Shown here: positions 29 through 13,428 of the stretch, in pieces
Layout of the letters: the number at the start of each line of letters is the position of its first letter
How positions within the stretch are numbered: position 1 is the first letter of the stretch
IMG/VR virus record: IMGVR_UViG_3300029843_000046
Reading direction: 5' to 3' (one strand)
DNA from: a virus
Lineage: Duplodnaviria; Heunggongvirae; Uroviricota; Caudoviricetes
DNA length: 15,255 nucleotides
Program-made: the position numbers and the translations under genes
Notes under the pieces: generated by a model
The model's database searches: none
Seen by the model: only the letters and a program-made list of their open reading frames with translations
Told to the model about the DNA's origin: nothing

Positions 29-85
29 CACGTTATCAGGCCACCATGGTGGCCTGACTGATTTCTGAATGAAAGGAACTGATTT

Positions 86-1114: not shown

Positions 1115-1122
1115 TCCGTGAG

Positions 1123-1151
1123 CGGGGGCGAAATGCCCCCGTGTCTTTTTT
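1123..1151 (+). terminator. Terminator-like hairpin between E and FI (7-bp GC stem CGGGGGC/GCCCCCG, loop GAAAT, then TGTC and TTTTTT)
   Basis: Inverted repeat 1123-1129 / 1135-1141 followed by a T6 run at 1146-1151, read directly from the sequence. Likely a partial terminator or mRNA-stabilising stem-loop inside the late operon. Confidence 0.4.
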
Positions 1152-8070: not shown

Positions 8071-8814
8071 ATGACACAGACTGAATCAGCGATTCTGGCG
8101 CATGCCCGGCGGTGTGCGCCTGCGGAGTCGTGCGGCTTCGTGATAAGCACGCCGGAGGGGGAGTGGTATATCCCTTGTGTGAATATTTCCGCAGAGCCGG
8201 AGGCGTATTTTCGTATCGCACCGGAAGACTGGCTGCGGGCAGAGATGCAGGGGGAGATTGTGGCACTGGTCCACAGTCATCCCGGTGGGCTGACCTGGCT
8301 GAGCGAGGCTGACCGGCGGCTGCAGATAAAAAGCGCACTGCCCTGGTGGCTGGTCTGCCGGGGTGACATTCACAAATTCCGCTGTGTGCCACATCTGACA
8401 GGACGGCGCTTTGAGCACGGGGTGACGGACTGTTACACGCTGTTCCGGGATGCTTATCATCTGGCGGGGACTGAAATGCCGGATTTTCATCGCGAGGATG
8501 ACTGGTGGCGCAACGGTCAGAACCTTTACCTGGACAACCTGGCGGTCACCGGCTTTTACCGGGTGCCCCTGTCCTCTGCACAGGCGGGCGATATTCTGCT
8601 GTGCTGCTTTGGTGCTTCGGTACCGAACCATGCCGCCATTTACTGCGGCAACGGTGAGCTGCTTCACCATCTGCCTGAACAACTGAGTAAACGGGAGAGG
8701 TATTCCGAAAAATGGCAACGACGAACGCATTCTGTCTGGCGTCACCGCCACTGGCACGCATCTGCCTTCACGGGGATTTACAACGATTTGGCCGCCGCCT
8801 CAGCCTGTATGTGA
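8071..8814 (+). CDS. K: Tail tip assembly protein K (JAB/MPN-like plus NlpC/P60-like domains)
   Basis: First ATG of the open frame downstream of the L stop is at 8071 (MTQTESAILAHARRCAPAESCGF...); the tracked start at 7810 lies inside L and is rejected. An HSHP motif and a Cys/His pair (GVTDCYTLF, PNHAAIY) fit the MPN and NlpC/P60 folds reported for gpK. The start codon is uncertain, since lambda annotation uses a later start. Confidence 0.85.
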   Translation: MTQTESAILAHARRCAPAESCGFVISTPEGEWYIPCVNISAEPEAYFRIAPEDWLRAEMQGEIVALVHSHPGGLTWLSEADRRLQIKSALPWWLVCRGDIHKFRCVPHLTGRRFEHGVTDCYTLFRDAYHLAGTEMPDFHREDDWWRNGQNLYLDNLAVTGFYRVPLSSAQAGDILLCCFGASVPNHAAIYCGNGELLHHLPEQLSKRERYSEKWQRRTHSVWRHRHWHASAFTGIYNDLAAASACM

Positions 8815-9392
8815 ACACGGCAGCGGAAGCCATTCGCGCCCTGTCGATGCAGATGCCGGGCTTTCGCCGTCAGATGAACGAAGGCTGGTACCAGATACGT
8901 ATTGCCGGTTATGACACGGCACCGGAGGCGGTGTACGCCCGTCTTCACGAACAGCTGGGTGAGGGAACGGTCATCCATATTGTGCCGCGACTGGCCGGGG
9001 CCGGAAAGGGTGGACTGCAGATTGTGCTGGGGGCGGCAGCCATCGTGGGCTCTTTCTTCACTGCCGGTGCCTCGATGGCGTTATGGGGTACAGCCCTGAG
9101 TGCCGGCGGTTTTTCTGCCACCACGATGCTGTTTTCACTGGGGGCCAGCATGATACTGGGCGGTGTGGCCCAGATGCTGGCCCCGAAGGCAAAAACACCG
9201 GAGTACAAAAGCACGGATAACGGTAAACAGAACACCTACTTTTCCTCGCTGGATAACATGATTGCCCAGGGTAACCCGATGCCGGTGCCTTACGGGGAAA
9301 TGCTGGTTGGCTCCCGCCGTATATCCCAGGACATCAGTACCCGTGATGAAGGCGGGGGCGGAAAGGTCGTGGTTATCGGGCGGCAGGGGTAA
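8712..9392 (+). CDS. I: Tail tip assembly protein I
   Basis: 226 aa (lambda gpI is 223 aa). N-terminus MATTNAFCLASP...ARICLHGDLQRFGRR and the hydrophobic Gly/Ala-rich central segment match lambda gpI. It overlaps the 3' end of K by 103 nt in another frame, as in lambda. Confidence 0.9.
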   Translation: MATTNAFCLASPPLARICLHGDLQRFGRRLSLYVNTAAEAIRALSMQMPGFRRQMNEGWYQIRIAGYDTAPEAVYARLHEQLGEGTVIHIVPRLAGAGKGGLQIVLGAAAIVGSFFTAGASMALWGTALSAGGFSATTMLFSLGASMILGGVAQMLAPKAKTPEYKSTDNGKQNTYFSSLDNMIAQGNPMPVPYGEMLVGSRRISQDISTRDEGGGGKVVVIGRQG

Positions 9393-9438
9393 AAAGAATA
9401 AAAAAATCCCGCAGTGATCGCGGACAGGAACTGCGGGA
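9391..9438 (-). terminator. Minus-strand intrinsic terminator: 8-bp stem (9431-9438 / 9407-9414), then a U-run on the minus strand from 9406 to 9391
   Basis: Inverted repeat TCCCGCAG ... CTGCGGGA with a 16-nt loop. On the minus strand it is followed by TTTTTTTATTCTTTTT; on the + strand no T-run follows, so it is oriented for leftward transcription. Confidence 0.5.
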
Positions 9439-9496
9439 GAGTTACGAAGATTAAGTGTAAGGAATTATTCTTATATCACGACAAAAAAATTAACGC
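9395..9496 (-). ncRNA. Candidate ~100-nt small RNA in the I-J spacer, antisense to the late operon (predicted only)
   Basis: Bounded by the minus-strand promoter (-10 TATAAT at 9508-9503) and the minus-strand terminator (9438-9391). The AU-rich body has no ATG in any frame. Start and end are approximate. Confidence 0.3.
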
Positions 9497-9502
9497 AGAG
9501 AA

Positions 9503-9530
9503 ATTATACGCGCCACAGTCAGTTTGTGAA
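9503..9530 (-). promoter_or_regulatory. Sigma70-like promoter on the minus strand: -35 TTCACA (9530-9525), 16-bp spacer, -10 TATAAT (9508-9503)
   Basis: Read directly from the reverse complement: TTCACA-aactgactgtggcgcg-TATAAT, with an AT-rich upstream region and a second TTCACA copy 8 bp further upstream. Predicted transcription start near 9496. Confidence 0.45.
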
Positions 9531-9602
9531 AATGTGAAGATATTCAGAATTTTTATGCCATTACCGGTTTTAACCAACAGGATTATCGGTGGGCATGAAA
9601 GA

Positions 9603-9638
9603 AAACCCCGGTATCTGCTGATACCGGGGTTTCTCTTT
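9603..9638. terminator. Perfect 12-bp hairpin (AAACCCCGGTAT / ATACCGGGGTTT, loop CTGCTG) with T-rich flanks on both strands; possibly bidirectional
   Basis: Left arm 9603-9614, right arm 9621-9632, read from the sequence. CTCTTT follows on the + strand and TTTTC on the minus strand. Confidence 0.55.
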
Positions 9639-9735
9639 AGCATGGCAGAAATGTGTTTCATGCTTTTCGGGCGAAGGATATCCGACTTCTGTACGGAATG
9701 GCAAGTGGCGGTTAATTTATTCAGGGGAAGGCTGT

Positions 9736-12700
9736 ATGGGAAAAGGTGGCGGTAAGGCACACACGCCTCGTGAGGCGAAGGATAATCTCAAATCCACGCA
9801 GATGATGAGCGTGATTGATGCGATTGGTGAGGGACCGATAGAAGGTCCGGTGAAGGGACTGCAGAGTATCCTGGTGAACAAAACCCCGCTGACGGACACG
9901 GACGGTAATCCCGTGATACACGGTGTGACGGCGGTCTGGCGCGCCGGGGAGCAGGAGCAGACACCACCGGAAGGCTTTGAGTCCTCCGGAGCTGAAACCG
10001 GACTGGGCGTGGAAGTGACGAAGGCAAAACCGGTGACGCGCACCATTACGTCCGCGAACATTGACCGCCTGCGGGTTACCTTCGGGGTGCAGTCACTGGT
10101 GCAGACCACGTCAAAGGGCGACCGTAATCCTTCCTCTGTCCGGATTCTGATTCAGTTACAGAGTAATGGCCGCTGGGTGACGGAAAAGGATGTCACCATT
10201 AACGGCAAGACCACCTCGCAGTTCCTGGCGTCGGTGATTCTGGATAATCTGCCGCCCCGCCCCTTTAACATCCGGATGGTCCGGGAGACGGCGGACAGCA
10301 CCACGGACCAGTTGCAGAATAAGACGCTCTGGTCGTCATACACCGAAATCATCGATGTGAAACAGTGCTACCCGAACACGGCGATTGTGGGCCTGCAGGT
10401 GGATGCGGAGCAGTTTGGTGGTCAGCAGATGGCTGTGAACTACCATATCCGCGGTCGCATCATTCAGGTGCCGTCAAACTATGACCCGGAAAAACGCACG
10501 TACAGTGGTATCTGGGACGGCAGCCTGAAACCGGCATACAGCAACAATCCGGCCTGGTGTCTGTGGGACATGCTGACTCACCCGCGCTACGGCATGGGAA
10601 AACGTCTGGGGGCGGCGGATGTGGACAAGTGGGCGCTGTATGCCATCGGGCAGTACTGCGACCAGACGGTCCCGGATGGTTTCGGGGGGACCGAGCCGCG
10701 GATGACCTTTAATGCGTACCTGGCACAACAGCGTAAGGCGTGGGACGTTCTCAGTGATTTCTGCTCTGCGATGCGCTGTATGCCGGTATGGAACGGTCAG
10801 ACGCTGACGTTTGTTCAGGACCGCCCGTCGGATGTGGTGTGGCCGTACACCAACAGCGATGTGGTGGTGGATGATAACGGCGTGGGGTTCCGCTACAGCT
10901 TCAGTGCCCTGAAGGACCGGCACACGGCGGTGGAGGTGAATTACACCGACCCGCAGAACGGGTGGCAGACCTCCACGGAACTGGTGGAAGACCCGGAAGC
11001 CATACTGCGCTACGGACGCAACCTGCTGAAGATGGACGCGTTCGGCTGTACCAGCCGCGGTCAGGCCCACCGTGCCGGACTGTGGGTGATAAAGACCGAA
11101 CTGCTGGAAACGCAGACGGTGGATTTCACGCTCGGGTCTCAGGGGCTGCGGCACACACCCGGTGACATCATTGAAATCTGTGATAACGACTATGCCGGAA
11201 CCCTGACCGGCGGACGTGTCCTGTCCATCGATGCCGCCACCCGCACCCTGACGCTGGACCGTGAAGTGACACTTCCGGAGACCGGTGCCGCCACGGTGAA
11301 CCTGATTAACGGTAGCGGTAAGCCGGTGAGTGTGGACATCACCGCACACCCCGCGCCGGACCGGATACAGGTCAGTACCCTGCCTGATGGTGTGGAGACA
11401 TACGGGGTGTGGGGACTCTCCCTGCCGTCACTGCGCCGTCGCCTGTTCCGCTGTGTCTCCGTCCGGGAAAACACGGACGGCACCTTTGCCATCACGGCGG
11501 TGCAGCACGTACCGGAAAAAGAAGCCATCGTGGATAACGGGGCCCGCTTTGAGCCGCAGTCAGGCACCCTGAACAGCGTTATCCCACCGGCAGTGCAGCA
11601 CCTGACGGTGGAGGTGAGCGCAGCTGACGGCCAGTATCTGGCGCGGGCGAAATGGGACACGCCGCGGGTGGTGAAGGGCGTGCGCTTCAGTCTGCGCCTG
11701 ACCAGTGGTAAGGGAACGGATGCCAGACTGGTGACCACCGCTATCACCGCAGACACGGAGCACCGTTTCAGCGGCCTGCCGCTCGGGGAATACACCCTGA
11801 CGGTGCGGGCGATAAACAGCTATGGCCAGCAGGGTGAACCCGCCACCACCACCTTCCGGATTAACGCGCCAGCAAAACCCGCCACCATTGAGCTGACGCC
11901 GGGGTATTTTCAGATAACGGCGGTCCCGCGTCTTGCGGTGTATGACCCGACGGTACAGTTTGAACTCTGGTTCTCAGAAAAACGCATCACGAACACGGCA
12001 CAGGTGGAAAAATCTGCCCGTTATCTGGGGACCGGCAGTCAGTGGACTGTCCAGGGGAGCCGGATTAAGCCGGGGACGGATTTCTGGTTTTACGTGCGCA
12101 GCGTCAACCTGGTGGGAAAATCTGCTTTTGTGGAAGCCAGCGGGCAGCCCAGCAATGATGGTGAAGGGTATCTGGAAATTTTCCGGGGGCTGATAGATGA
12201 GACGCTGCTGGGCCAGGCACTGAAAAAGCGCATTGATGCTTCAGCGCTGCGTACGGAGGTCACGCAACTGGAAGAAGATATCCGTCAGCGGATGGACACG
12301 GATATCGCAGAAGTGACCCGGAAAATCGGGAAGGCGGAAAACAGCCTCACGCAGCTGGTTGCGAAAAAGAATGAGGACCAGACACTGGCCATCGCGCAGG
12401 TGAGCCAGAAAGTGGACCGGGTGAGCAGTGAAATCTCACAGACTGTCAGCCAGGGGCAGTCAGAAAACGCCCGACAGATAGCACAGGTCCGCCAGTACGT
12501 GGATAAAAAAGGGAGTGAAATTACCTCGACCACGGATAAAAAGCTGGGTGACCAGGCCGTGACCATACAGCAAATCCAGCGGGTTCAGTCAGACACGCGC
12601 AATGAGCTGAATGCCATGTATATGCTGAAGGTGCAGAAAACAAAAAACGGTATTCCCTATGTGGCCGGGATTGGTGCGGGGATTGAGGATGTTGATGGTC

Positions 12701-13428
12701 AGACCCTGAGTAACATTCTGCTGCAGGCCGATCGCATTGCGATGATTACCCCGGAGAACGGCAACACCACGCCGCTGTTTGTGGCGCAGGGGAATCAGCT
12801 GTTCATGAACGACGTGTTCCTGAAGCGACTGTTTGCGGTGAGCATCACGTCATCCGGCAATCCTCCTACGTTTTCCCTGACGCCGGATGGCAGGCTGGCA
12901 GCCCGCAATGCGGATATCAGTGGAGCCATCACGGCGAATACCGGCACGCTCAATAATGTCACCATTAACGAGAACTGTGTCATCAGAGGGAAACTGTCTG
13001 CAAACCAGATTGAAGGCGATCTCGTTAAAACAGTGGGTAAGGCTTTCCCCCGTGACTCCCGTGCACCGGAGAGGTGGCCATCAGGGACCATTACCGTCAG
13101 GGTTTATGACGATCAGCCGTTTGACCGGCAAATTGTTATTCCGGCGGTGGCATTCAGCGGTGCCAGACATGAGCGGGAGAATAACGATATTTATTCGTCA
13201 TGCCGCCTGATAGTACGGAAAAACGGTGCTGAAATTTATAACCGTACCGCGCTGGATAATACGCTGGTTTACAGTGGTGTTATTGATATGCCTGCTGGTC
13301 GCGGCCACATGACGCTGGAGTTTTCTGTATCAGCATGGTGGGTAAATGGCTGGTATCCCACAGCAAGTATCAGCGATTTGCTGGTTGTTGTGATGAAGAA
13401 AGCCACTGCAGGCATCACGATTAGCTGA
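9736..13428 (+). CDS. J: Central tail fibre / host specificity protein J
   Basis: 1230 aa with AGGGGAAGG ribosome-binding site. N-terminus [22 protein letters not shown] and long blocks ([96 protein letters not shown], the C-terminal block ending [17 protein letters not shown]...[19 protein letters not shown]) match lambda gpJ as I recall it. Confidence 0.95.

What the first reader, a model, noticed from the sequence alone, without database searches (positions are those of the whole stretch)
9603..9638. Perfect 12-bp hairpin with T-rich flanks inside the late operon, just upstream of J
A 12-bp perfect stem with a 6-nt loop, flanked by T-rich sequence on both strands, is a strong intrinsic-terminator candidate in either direction. 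On the + strand it lies between I and J, which are normally co-transcribed, so J expression would depend on antiterminated late transcription. It could also insulate the candidate sRNA promoter from convergent transcription, or mark the right-hand boundary of the inserted element.
Basis: seen in the sequence. Interest (0 to 1): 0.45.

Follow-up and report, generated by a model that had tools for sequence, protein, structure and literature searches.

The report
Terminator hairpin between tail genes I/J
The strong stem-loop between phage tail genes I and J is real and is most likely an ordinary transcription terminator. It lies next to a known prophage small-RNA gene (PasB), and lambda and its relatives carry a comparable hairpin at the same spot.

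Summary
The hairpin is real. It has a 13-bp perfect stem (9603-9615/9620-9632) and a TGCT loop, inside a longer imperfect palindrome (about 9592-9646). RNA folding gives -32 kcal/mol on the + strand and -29 on the - strand (z about -6.5). Only 2 of 1000 simulated windows hold an equal hairpin.

It sits in a 343-bp low-GC insert between I (ends 9392) and J (starts 9736). By my coordinate mapping, EcOnc22-24 of EHEC are further copies.

The hairpin is not part of PasB and is not the edge of the insert. It lies inside a separate 179-bp module (9557-9735) that is at least 99% identical in about 1445 E. coli genomes.

Its sequence scores as an intrinsic terminator on both strands. Nine of ten I-J spacer classes examined have a sense-strand hairpin just before J, eight with a clear T tract. 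These include lambda itself and phages with only 30-41% J identity. The window's hairpin is therefore best read as the local, non-homologous version of a conserved pre-J terminator, which Q-antiterminated late transcription would read through. The minus-strand activity may be secondary.

No 3'-end data were available. The finding is ordinary and of low interest.

The parts
9603..9632 (.). Perfect 13-bp inverted repeat with a 4-nt loop. The GC core stem is 9606-9615/9620-9629.
   Evidence: for the sequence. for folding. for the chance estimate of 2/1000.
9592..9646 (.). Extended imperfect palindrome around the hairpin (GGCATGAAAGAAAA...TTTCTCTTTAGCATGGC)
   Evidence: Minimum-free-energy structures. 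Sequence.
9630..9640 (+). Sense-strand T-rich tail TTTCTCTTTAG. The predicted + strand 3' end is at about 9636-9638. The Sakai Sp12 copy reads TTTTCTTTAG.
9597..9605 (-). Antisense-strand T-rich tail (TTTTCTTTC on the minus strand). The predicted minus-strand 3' end is at about 9598-9600.
9557..9735 (.). The 'long' right-hand module of the I-J insert, which holds the hairpin. It is at least 99% identical in 1442 of 1451 E. coli records. It is always linked to PasB and J. In 'short' spacers an unrelated module of about 77 bp takes its place.
9400..9496 (-). PasB-family sRNA gene (a variant allele). The 5' end is predicted from the promoter. The published 83-nt PasB aligns to about 9484-9400.
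   Evidence: The Northern probe of PMC8550237 Table S6 matches 9405-9424 at 20 of 23 positions.
9503..9530 (-). PasB promoter TTCACA-16-TATAAT (11 of 12). The upstream A/T-rich block is conserved in all alleles.
9407..9438 (-). PasB terminator stem (TCCCGCAGT/ACTGCGGGA), followed by T7 at 9406-9400
9675..9704 (-). Weak promoter-like site TTGCCA-18-TATCCT (9 of 12). If active, it would give an RNA of about 71 nt (9668 to 9598) ending at the hairpin.
   Evidence: There is no expression evidence.
8811..9392 (+). Tail assembly protein I
   Evidence: Pfam PF06805. RefSeq annotation of an identical locus.
9736..13428 (+). Tip attachment / host specificity protein J
   Evidence: Several gpJ Pfam domains. 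RefSeq annotation.

Best explanation
The hairpin is a Rho-independent (intrinsic) transcription terminator. It lies in the J-proximal half of a moron-type insert that carries the sRNA gene pasB between tail genes I and J.

Its main role is on the sense (+) strand. There it is the local, non-homologous counterpart of a terminator-like hairpin that lambda-like phages keep immediately upstream of J. RNA polymerase that has not been modified by the late antiterminator Q stops here, at about 9636-9638. That includes any stray transcription in the lysogen that has run through I and the pasB region. Q-modified polymerase reads through during lytic growth, so J expression is tied to the late programme.

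The stem is flanked symmetrically by an A tract and a T tract, so it should also terminate minus-strand transcripts at about 9598-9600. These would come out of J, or from the weak promoter at 9704..9675. Stopping them keeps read-in transcription out of the pasB promoter.

Shown: the structure, its non-randomness, its terminator-like anatomy on both strands, its position, the identity of the neighbouring sRNA, and the recurrence of sense-strand hairpins at this junction.

Inferred: that termination actually occurs, that Q overrides it, and which strand matters most.
For: (1) Structure and statistics.

(2) Terminator anatomy was scored with a d'Aubenton-Carafa-type formula that I wrote from memory, using modern energy parameters. 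Sense scores 22.3 (34.3 for the Sakai Sp12 variant, tail TTTTCTTTAG) and antisense 32.9. In the same window the terminator after J scores 34.0 and the one after lom 27.3.

(3) Context. The 343-bp insert has GC of 0.35-0.47 against 0.53-0.64 in the flanking genes. It has its own promoter and terminator for PasB. This fits the moron definition (PMC3594210).

(4) Recurrence at the same position:
- Lambda's 60-nt I-J spacer holds AACCGCC-loop-GGCGGTT followed by TTTTGTCATTT. The stem is invariant in 23 sequence variants while the loop varies.
- A 477-nt lipoprotein-moron spacer ends in AGCCGCC...GGCGGCT followed by TTTGTTGTTT. Relative to lambda this is an A-T to G-C double change in one stem pair.
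- All 'short' PasB spacers carry a different hairpin, CAGGCAyCC-loop-GGrTGCCTG followed by TTGTTTTTGTG. It scores on the sense strand only, and 98.5% of stem cells pair.
- Five phages with only 30-41% J identity all have a GC hairpin in a 41-77-nt I-J spacer. Four of the five are followed by T6-T8 on the sense strand, and none scores antisense.

(5) I-J is the only non-coding gap among the tail-tip genes of the window. M, L, K and I abut or overlap.

(6) One-base indels occur in both flanks of the hairpin in natural variants, so no ORF across it is conserved. Those ORFs also have no Pfam hit.
Against: - No 3'-end, Term-seq or reporter data for this site could be reached. The supplements of the Sakai Term-seq paper are not held.
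- Both T tracts are interrupted (TTTCTCTTT and TTTTCTTTC), so efficiency may be modest.
- The 179-bp module is nearly invariant, so there is no covariation test for this hairpin itself.
- The hairpin lies 106 nt from J, against 24-51 nt for its presumed counterparts.
- One spacer class, the 851-bp sodC insert, has no sense-strand terminator before J, so the feature is not indispensable.
- No good + strand promoter was found upstream within the insert. The best candidate is 8 of 12. What the sense terminator stops in a lysogen is therefore unidentified.
- Covariation in the analogous hairpin B is weak. One pair covaries, and 57 of 500 shuffles score as high.
Confidence: 0.55

Rival explanations
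1. The hairpin is chiefly the terminator of a second, unannotated small RNA on the minus strand. This RNA would be about 71 nt (9668 to 9598), made from the weak promoter at 9704..9675, in tandem upstream of pasB.
For: - The minus-strand tail TTTTCTTTC scores better than the plus-strand tail (32.9 against 22.3).
- A promoter-like site (9 of 12) lies at the right distance.
- The predicted RNA has a 5' hairpin, an A-rich linker and a terminator, like Hfq-binding sRNAs.
- In Sakai, 57% of a 378-nt antisense window (XECs209) that contains only the 83-97-nt PasB is covered by reads, probably ribosome-footprint reads.
Against: - The -10 element TATCCT with an 18-nt spacer is weak.
- No Hfq-CRAC peak is listed in the Sp12 I-J spacer of Sakai, although PasB copies in Sp11, Sp14 and Sp15 are (Tree 2014 Table S2, with a coordinate shift of +138 taken).
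- No Rfam family matches.
- The counterpart hairpins in all other spacer classes have no antisense T tract.
Confidence: 0.15
2. The stem-loop is an RNA processing or stability element of the late mRNA rather than a terminator. It could be a 3' hairpin protecting the upstream tail-gene message, a 5' hairpin protecting the J message, or an RNase III site formed by the extended helix of about 22 bp.
For: - The extended imperfect helix spans about 22 bp at -32 kcal/mol.
- Hairpins at this junction are conserved even though Q-modified polymerase would ignore terminators during the only phase when I and J are needed.
- PasB is fully complementary to the late mRNA just upstream, which would create a cleavage site nearby. 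This last point is inference.
Against: - The counterparts in other phages are short stems of 4-8 bp followed by T6-T8. That is the signature of termination and is far too short for RNase III.
- T tracts are conserved along with the stems.
Confidence: 0.12
3. The hairpin has no present function. It is a passenger, for example the terminator of whatever DNA the 179-bp module was copied from, spread recently by recombination together with pasB and J.
For: - The module is at least 99% identical in about 1445 genomes and pairs with at least five PasB alleles of 80-100% identity. This looks like recent mosaic spread rather than long purifying selection.
- It is confined to Escherichia.
- The sodC-type spacer manages without a pre-J terminator.
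Against: - A 13-bp perfect stem with symmetric A and T tracts is unlikely to persist or arise by chance.
- The same position is filled by terminator-like hairpins of independent sequence in nearly every relative.
- The few variants in the module cluster in the A and T tracts and leave the stem intact.
Confidence: 0.12
4. The region is protein-coding and the palindrome lies within an ORF. On the + strand this is the 66-aa 'hypothetical protein' annotated in phage ASU11 (9555-9755). On the - strand it is XECs209 of Sakai, or the 94-aa ORF at 9476-9760.
For: - ASU11 gp9c is annotated.
- XECs209 was classed as 'real' from RIBOseq by Hücker 2017.
Against: - Natural one-base indels on both sides of the stem shift the frame of every such ORF.
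- XECs209 reads straight through the PasB promoter, gene and terminator, and has no predicted promoter, ribosome-binding site or terminator.
- There are no Pfam hits.
- No ribosome-binding site precedes the candidate start codons (sequence).
Confidence: 0.02
5. The palindrome is a DNA-level site: a binding site for a dimeric protein, or a recombination or insertion hotspot that defines mosaic joints.
For: - It is a perfect palindrome.
- One degenerate prophage (NZRM4165) has a deletion that ends inside the right arm.
- One contig has an IS element inserted 19 nt upstream.
Against: - The mosaic joint between long and short spacers is at 9556/9557, not at the palindrome.
- No repeated copies occur outside this locus.
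- The counterparts in other phages share structure and a T tract but not sequence, which points to RNA-level function.
Confidence: 0.03

Closest known systems
Intrinsic (Rho-independent) terminators, including bidirectional ones flanked by an A tract and a T tract
   Same: It has a GC-rich 10-bp core stem, a 4-nt loop, a T-rich tail right after the stem on each strand, and a complementary A tract upstream. Its scores match the accepted terminators after J and lom in the same window. Sixty-three unrelated genomes carry the same AACCCCGGTA-N8-TACCGGGGTT palindrome. A rough estimate gives about 0.5 expected by chance, which suggests this is a generic terminator-type sequence.
   Different: Both T tracts are interrupted by C. 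No convergent gene pair flanks it. Termination has not been measured.
The I-J intergenic hairpin of phage lambda and its relatives (lambda coordinates 15445-15504)
   Same: The position between I and J is the same, as is the sense orientation and the stem followed by a T tract. This is the only non-coding gap among the tail-tip genes.
   Different: There is no sequence homology. The window's stem is longer, lies 106 nt rather than about 25 nt from the J start, and alone also scores on the antisense strand. I found no paper describing the lambda hairpin's function, so this comparison is structural only.
The PasB sRNA moron (PasB of EPEC E2348/69; by my mapping also EcOnc22/23/24 of EHEC Sakai)
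   Same: The hairpin always occurs next to a pasB allele, on the J side of its promoter, inside the same low-GC insert.
   Different: The hairpin is not part of the PasB transcript. PasB runs away from it, from about 9496 to 9400. The strain in which PasB was characterised, E2348/69, has the short spacer with a different hairpin.
Phage morons (promoter-gene-terminator units such as HK97 gene 15, lambda lom/bor, prophage sodC)
   Same: The I-J junction carries alternative cargo in different phages: PasB, sodC plus a PasB remnant, a lipoprotein gene, or nothing. The GC content is deviant and the insert has its own promoter and terminator.
   Different: The cargo here is a non-coding RNA transcribed against the late operon. 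The hairpin lies upstream of the cargo's promoter, not downstream of the cargo.

Membership tests
Intrinsic (Rho-independent) terminator | Stable GC-rich stem-loop | tested here: met
   The 10-bp core stem has 6 G-C pairs and folds at -19.1 kcal/mol (+) and -18.5 kcal/mol (-). The whole structure folds at -32.2 and -28.7 kcal/mol, z about -6.5.
Intrinsic (Rho-independent) terminator | U-rich tract immediately 3' of the stem | tested here: met
   The + strand tail is TTTCTCTTTAG (tail score 3.43, or 4.09 in the Sakai variant). The - strand tail is TTTTCTTTC (tail score 4.15). Both are interrupted by C.
Intrinsic (Rho-independent) terminator | RNA 3' ends map to the U tract in vivo, or termination is shown in a reporter | not testable with these tools
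   Term-seq exists for Sakai, which carries the element in Sp12, but the data tables are not held.
Bidirectional terminator | Transcription units converge on the hairpin from both sides | tested here: inconclusive
   On the + strand the I gene and late operon read into it. On the - strand there is only a weak promoter-like site (9 of 12) at 9704..9675 and no annotated gene.
Conserved pre-J hairpin of lambda-like tail operons (a positional class defined here) | Sense-oriented hairpin plus T tract in the I-J spacer | tested here: met
   It is present in this window and in 8 of the 9 other spacer classes examined. One of those, Serratia phage Rovert, has only a weak T tail.
Conserved pre-J hairpin of lambda-like tail operons (a positional class defined here) | Sequence homology to the lambda hairpin | tested here: not met
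   There is no similarity. The shared sequence between long and short spacers ends at 9556. The resemblance is of position and structure only.
Moron | Extra DNA between conserved genes, absent from relatives, with deviant GC and its own promoter and terminator | tested here: met
   The insert is 343 bp here against 60 bp in lambda. GC is 0.35-0.47 against 0.53-0.64. The PasB promoter (11 of 12) and terminator are present.
PasB sRNA | The hairpin lies within the PasB transcript | tested here: not met
   The published 83-nt PasB aligns to about 9484-9400 on the minus strand. The hairpin is more than 100 nt upstream of the PasB promoter.
Any Rfam RNA family | Match at the gathering score | tested here: not met
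   There were no hits at gathering thresholds. Around the hairpin there were only sub-threshold, terminator-driven matches. The highest-scoring was 27.3 bits against a cut-off of 48.
REP / MITE / IS end | Many dispersed copies per genome, or terminal inverted repeats with target duplications | tested here: not met
   The median is 1 copy per genome and the maximum 4. Wherever the flanks were examined, the module lay in the I-J spacer with PasB and J.

The most novel reading that the evidence does not exclude
A terminator-like hairpin immediately upstream of J may be a selected, deeply conserved control point of lambda-like tail operons. When morons such as pasB are inserted, non-homologous hairpins replace it. 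It would divide the late operon into a part that any polymerase can transcribe and a part (J, lom, side tail fibres) that only Q-modified polymerase reaches. Alternatively it could set the I:J message ratio. The window's version would be a bidirectional variant that also ends a second, undescribed small RNA upstream of PasB.
Probability: 0.2. Interest if true: 0.45.

Novelty: new member of a known kind. Interest (0 to 1): 0.2.

Why it matters
In itself it matters little. It is one more intrinsic terminator, in a prophage region that about a quarter of complete E. coli genomes carry.

It is useful in three modest ways:
- It fixes the anatomy of the pasB locus: which parts are the sRNA, its promoter, and a separable terminator module. 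Anyone deleting or cloning PasB needs this.
- It shows that the I-J junction of lambda-like phages regularly holds a sense-strand terminator-like hairpin, and that the junction is a hotspot for alternative cargo (PasB, sodC, a lipoprotein). I found no paper describing this in the searches I ran.
- It flags two annotated or proposed ORFs over the hairpin as very probably spurious.

Tried and rejected
- **Rfam.** Gathering thresholds on the whole window and on five related loci, and permissive thresholds on 9350-9780, gave nothing for the hairpin or for PasB. Only AgvB and STnc100 were found, in an unrelated Sakai control locus.
- **Genome-wide pattern scan** for AACCCCGGTA-N8-TACCGGGGTT in one genome per species. 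Only E. albertii has the homologous locus. The other 63 hits are unrelated palindromes, so there were no diverged homologues and no covariation test for hairpin A.
- **Distant BLAST** of the 179-bp module against E. coli genomes and phages. Only near-identical copies turned up, so the origin of the module is unknown.
- **Coding hypotheses** (ASU11 gp9c; XECs209 of Hücker 2017; the window ORFs 9414-9755 + and 9476-9760 -). Rejected on frameshifting natural indels, no Pfam hits, and no ribosome-binding site, promoter or terminator.
- **A + strand promoter inside the insert** that the hairpin could terminate. The only candidate is an 8-of-12 site (ACGACA-18-AATTAT, 9478..9507) that overlaps the PasB -10 element on the other strand. 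It is too weak to build on.
- **Published data.** The Hfq-CRAC table of Tree 2014 lists no peak in the Sp12 I-J spacer. EPEC RNA-seq and RIL-seq concern the short spacer only. The Term-seq supplements are not held. Literature searches for a described lambda I-J terminator found nothing.
- **Hairpin as the boundary of the inserted element.** Rejected.
- **Covariation in the analogous short-spacer hairpin.** Only one covarying pair, and not significant.

Full report
**Observation.** The sequence at 9603-9632 reads AAACCCCGGTATC-TGCT-GATACCGGGGTTT. This is a 13-bp perfect inverted repeat with a 4-nt loop. It is the longest perfect inverted repeat in the 15.3-kb window. The GC core (9606-9615/9620-9629) is flanked by GAAAGAAAA and TTTCTCTTTAG, and pairing continues imperfectly to about 9592-9646. 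Folded as RNA, 9590-9650 gives -32.2 kcal/mol on the + strand and -28.7 on the - strand, with z-scores of -6.6 and -6.3. A perfect hairpin of this size occurred in 2 of 1000 simulated windows. The built-in terminator scan missed it. My reading is that the scan extends the stem through the A/T pairs and so uses up the T tract.

**Setting.** The flanking genes are tail assembly protein I (ends 9392) and tip attachment protein J (starts 9736). lom follows J (Pfam; RefSeq annotation of an identical locus in ATCC 25922). Between I and J lie 343 non-coding bases. Their GC falls to 0.35-0.47, against 0.53-0.64 in the genes. The upstream tail-tip genes M, L, K and I abut or overlap, so this is the only gap.

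**The neighbouring small RNA.** On the minus strand the insert has a near-consensus promoter (TTCACA-16-TATAAT, 9530..9503) and a terminator with a T7 tail (about 9438..9400). The Northern probe used to validate PasB in EPEC E2348/69 (PMC8550237, Table S6) matches 9405-9424 at 20 of 23 positions. The published 83-nt PasB aligns to about 9484-9400. PasB is an Hfq-dependent sRNA, about 100-fold lower in a delta-hfq strain, and is described as embedded in an operon of phage structural genes (bioRxiv 10.64898/2026.05.13.724894).

I calibrated the shift between the two Sakai genome versions at +138, from XECs209 against the J start, and at +137 to +146 from AgvB. With that shift, the Hfq-CRAC peaks EcOnc22/23/24 of Tree et al. 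2014 (about 85 nt on Northern, Hfq-dependent) fall on the PasB homologues in Sakai prophages Sp15, Sp14 and Sp11. The papers I read do not state this equivalence. It is my inference.

**Where the hairpin sits in the insert.** I compared 86 I-J junctions with spacers extracted. The insert comes in two main forms that share the PasB gene and promoter up to window 9556 ('...GAATTTTTAT') and then differ completely.
- The long form (338-344 bp) is found in this window, Sakai Sp12, E. albertii and many ExPEC strains. It continues with a 179-bp module (9557-9735) that holds the hairpin.
- The short form (234-253 bp) is found in E2348/69, PhiR5_1, Stx2c phages and Sakai Sp11/Sp15. It continues with about 77 unrelated bases.

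The 179-bp module is at least 99% identical in 1442 of 1451 E. coli records, from 1446 of 5426 genomes. With one degenerate exception, it was always found together with PasB. Meanwhile the PasB body beside it ranges from 80 to 100% identity. The hairpin is therefore neither part of PasB nor the boundary of the insert. The few variants in the module are mostly one-base changes in the A and T tracts. One of them, in Sakai Sp12, turns TTTCTCTTT into TTTTCTTT.

**Terminator anatomy.** I scored stems and tails with a d'Aubenton-Carafa-type formula, implemented from memory with modern energies, so the numbers are only comparative. The hairpin scores 22.3 on the sense strand (34.3 for the Sakai variant) and 32.9 on the antisense strand. 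In the same window the terminator after J scores 34.0 and the one after lom 27.3. By sequence it is a bidirectional intrinsic terminator.

**Comparative evidence for the sense strand.** This is the most informative result.
- The short spacers carry a different hairpin at the equivalent place, CAGGCAyCC-loop-GGrTGCCTG followed by TTGTTTTTGTG. It scores only on the sense strand. Its stem is kept in 13 distinct sequences, with one pair varying as U-A, C-G or U-G. The covariation is too sparse to be significant.
- Lambda itself has a 60-nt I-J spacer with AACCGCC-TGCG-GGCGGTT followed by TTTTGTCATTT. In 23 sequence variants of that spacer the stem never changes while the loop does.
- A 477-nt variant carries a sense-strand lipoprotein gene and ends in AGCCGCC...GGCGGCT followed by TTTGTTGTTT. 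This is the lambda stem with a compensated A-T to G-C change.
- Five phages whose J proteins are only 30-41% identical to the window's all have a 41-77-nt I-J spacer holding a GC hairpin. They are Serratia Rovert, mEp235, mEp213, Cronobacter phiES15 and LF82-12. Four of the five hairpins are followed by T6-T8 on the sense strand, and none scores on the antisense strand.
- Only the 851-bp class, with an antisense sodC gene plus the 3' remnant of PasB, lacks a sense terminator before J.

A sense-oriented terminator-like hairpin just before J is therefore a recurring positional feature of lambda-like tail operons. The window's hairpin is its local, non-homologous representative. It is unusual only in lying 106 nt from J and in also scoring on the other strand.

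**Mechanism.** From the established biology of lambda, late transcription depends on Q, which makes RNA polymerase resistant to terminators across the whole late operon. This point rests on my own knowledge, not on a tool result. A terminator inside that operon is then silent during lytic growth and active against any unmodified polymerase. I therefore read the hairpin as a conditional stop before J on the + strand, with a secondary stop on the - strand. The secondary stop would keep transcripts from within J, or from the weak promoter-like site at 9704..9675, out of the PasB promoter.

Polymerases convergent with PasB come from I and meet PasB before they reach the hairpin. What the sense terminator stops in a lysogen is not identified. 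Tail genes are nearly silent in EPEC, and the only + strand promoter-like site in the insert matches 8 of 12.

**Rivals.**
- **A second small RNA on the minus strand, ending at the hairpin.** This is possible, and the read coverage of the antisense strand in Sakai hints at RNA beyond PasB. Against it, the promoter is weak, no Hfq peak is listed there, and no other spacer class has an antisense tail.
- **An RNA-stability or RNase III role.** This fits the long extended helix. It does not fit the short stems with long T runs in the relatives.
- **A functionless passenger.** This fits the recent, near-clonal spread of the module. It does not fit the recurrence of hairpins at this site.
- **Coding readings** (ASU11 gp9c, XECs209). 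Natural frameshifting indels and the lack of any translation signals rule these out.
- **A DNA-level site.** Only anecdotes support this: a deletion ending in the right arm in NZRM4165 and an IS element 19 nt away in one contig.

**Novelty and verdict.** PasB is known and intrinsic terminators are commonplace. I did not find this particular hairpin described anywhere, and I could not find the regular presence of a pre-J hairpin in lambda-like phages in the literature available. It is a new member of a known kind, of low interest. Reading the existing Sakai Term-seq data at 2217497-2217520 of NC_002695.2 would settle both directions at once.

Noticed in passing
window 9400-9530 (minus strand): The sRNA gene beside the hairpin is a PasB allele, about 80% identical to E2348/69 PasB over the module. 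After correcting for a +138-bp shift between Sakai genome versions, the Hfq-CRAC sRNAs EcOnc22/23/24 of Tree et al. 2014 map onto PasB homologues in Sakai Sp15, Sp14 and Sp11. The papers I read do not state this equivalence.
   Followed up: partly
window 9484-9496 (minus strand): The near-consensus promoter predicts a start at about 9496, giving an RNA of about 97 nt. The published 83-nt PasB 5' end aligns to about 9484. Either the RNA is trimmed at its 5' end or the coverage-based start is imprecise.
   Followed up: no
window 9393-9556 against 9557-9735; alignments of loci L001-L091: The PasB body, especially its 5' two-thirds, is hypervariable between prophages (68-100% identity, with indels). 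Its promoter -35/UP block (window ~9527-9556) is invariant among the long spacers and nearly so among the short ones, and the 179-bp right module is invariant. The conserved promoter block looks like a recombination linker between mosaic segments.
   Followed up: partly
L087, L070, L068, L074 and others (851-bp I-J spacer): The same junction can carry an antisense Cu,Zn superoxide dismutase (sodC) gene that replaces the PasB promoter. The 3' half of PasB and its terminator remain downstream of sodC.
   Followed up: partly
L164, L165, L178, L179, L202 (477-bp I-J spacer next to a lambda-type J): A sense-strand gene for a lipoprotein of about 110 aa (MNKTILFCTIIALTGCKS...) is inserted between I and the lambda-type pre-J hairpin. 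Together with PasB and sodC, this marks I-J as a hotspot for moron insertion.
   Followed up: no
L156 763-790 (lambda 15462-15489): Phage lambda itself has a terminator-like hairpin (AAACCGCC-TGCG-GGCGGTTTT) in its 60-nt I-J spacer. The stem is invariant in 23 natural variants while the loop varies. I found no description of its function.
   Followed up: partly
window 9555-9755 (+) and 9337-9714 (-): Two ORFs across the hairpin exist in public records or papers: ASU11 gp9c 'hypothetical protein', and XECs209, called a 'real' novel gene from RIBOseq. Both are very probably artefacts. XECs209 reads through the PasB promoter, gene and terminator.
   Followed up: yes
L004 about 1201-1214 (E. coli NZRM4165); L014 about 1345-1355: A degenerate prophage has a deletion running from inside I to the right arm of the hairpin. 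Another contig has an IS element inserted 19 nt upstream of the hairpin.
   Followed up: no
window 9639-9672 (+): A second, weaker stem-loop (AGCATG..GAAA / TTTC..CATGCT) followed by TTTTCGGG lies directly downstream of the main hairpin on the sense strand. It shares the GCATGAAA motif with the flank of the main hairpin. It scored below my terminator threshold.
   Followed up: no
window 36-57 and 1122-1142 (+): Terminator-like hairpins lie just before and just after the 342-aa ORF at 86-1114. From its size and position I take this ORF to be the major capsid gene, which I did not test. They would be further internal hairpins of the late operon.
   Followed up: no
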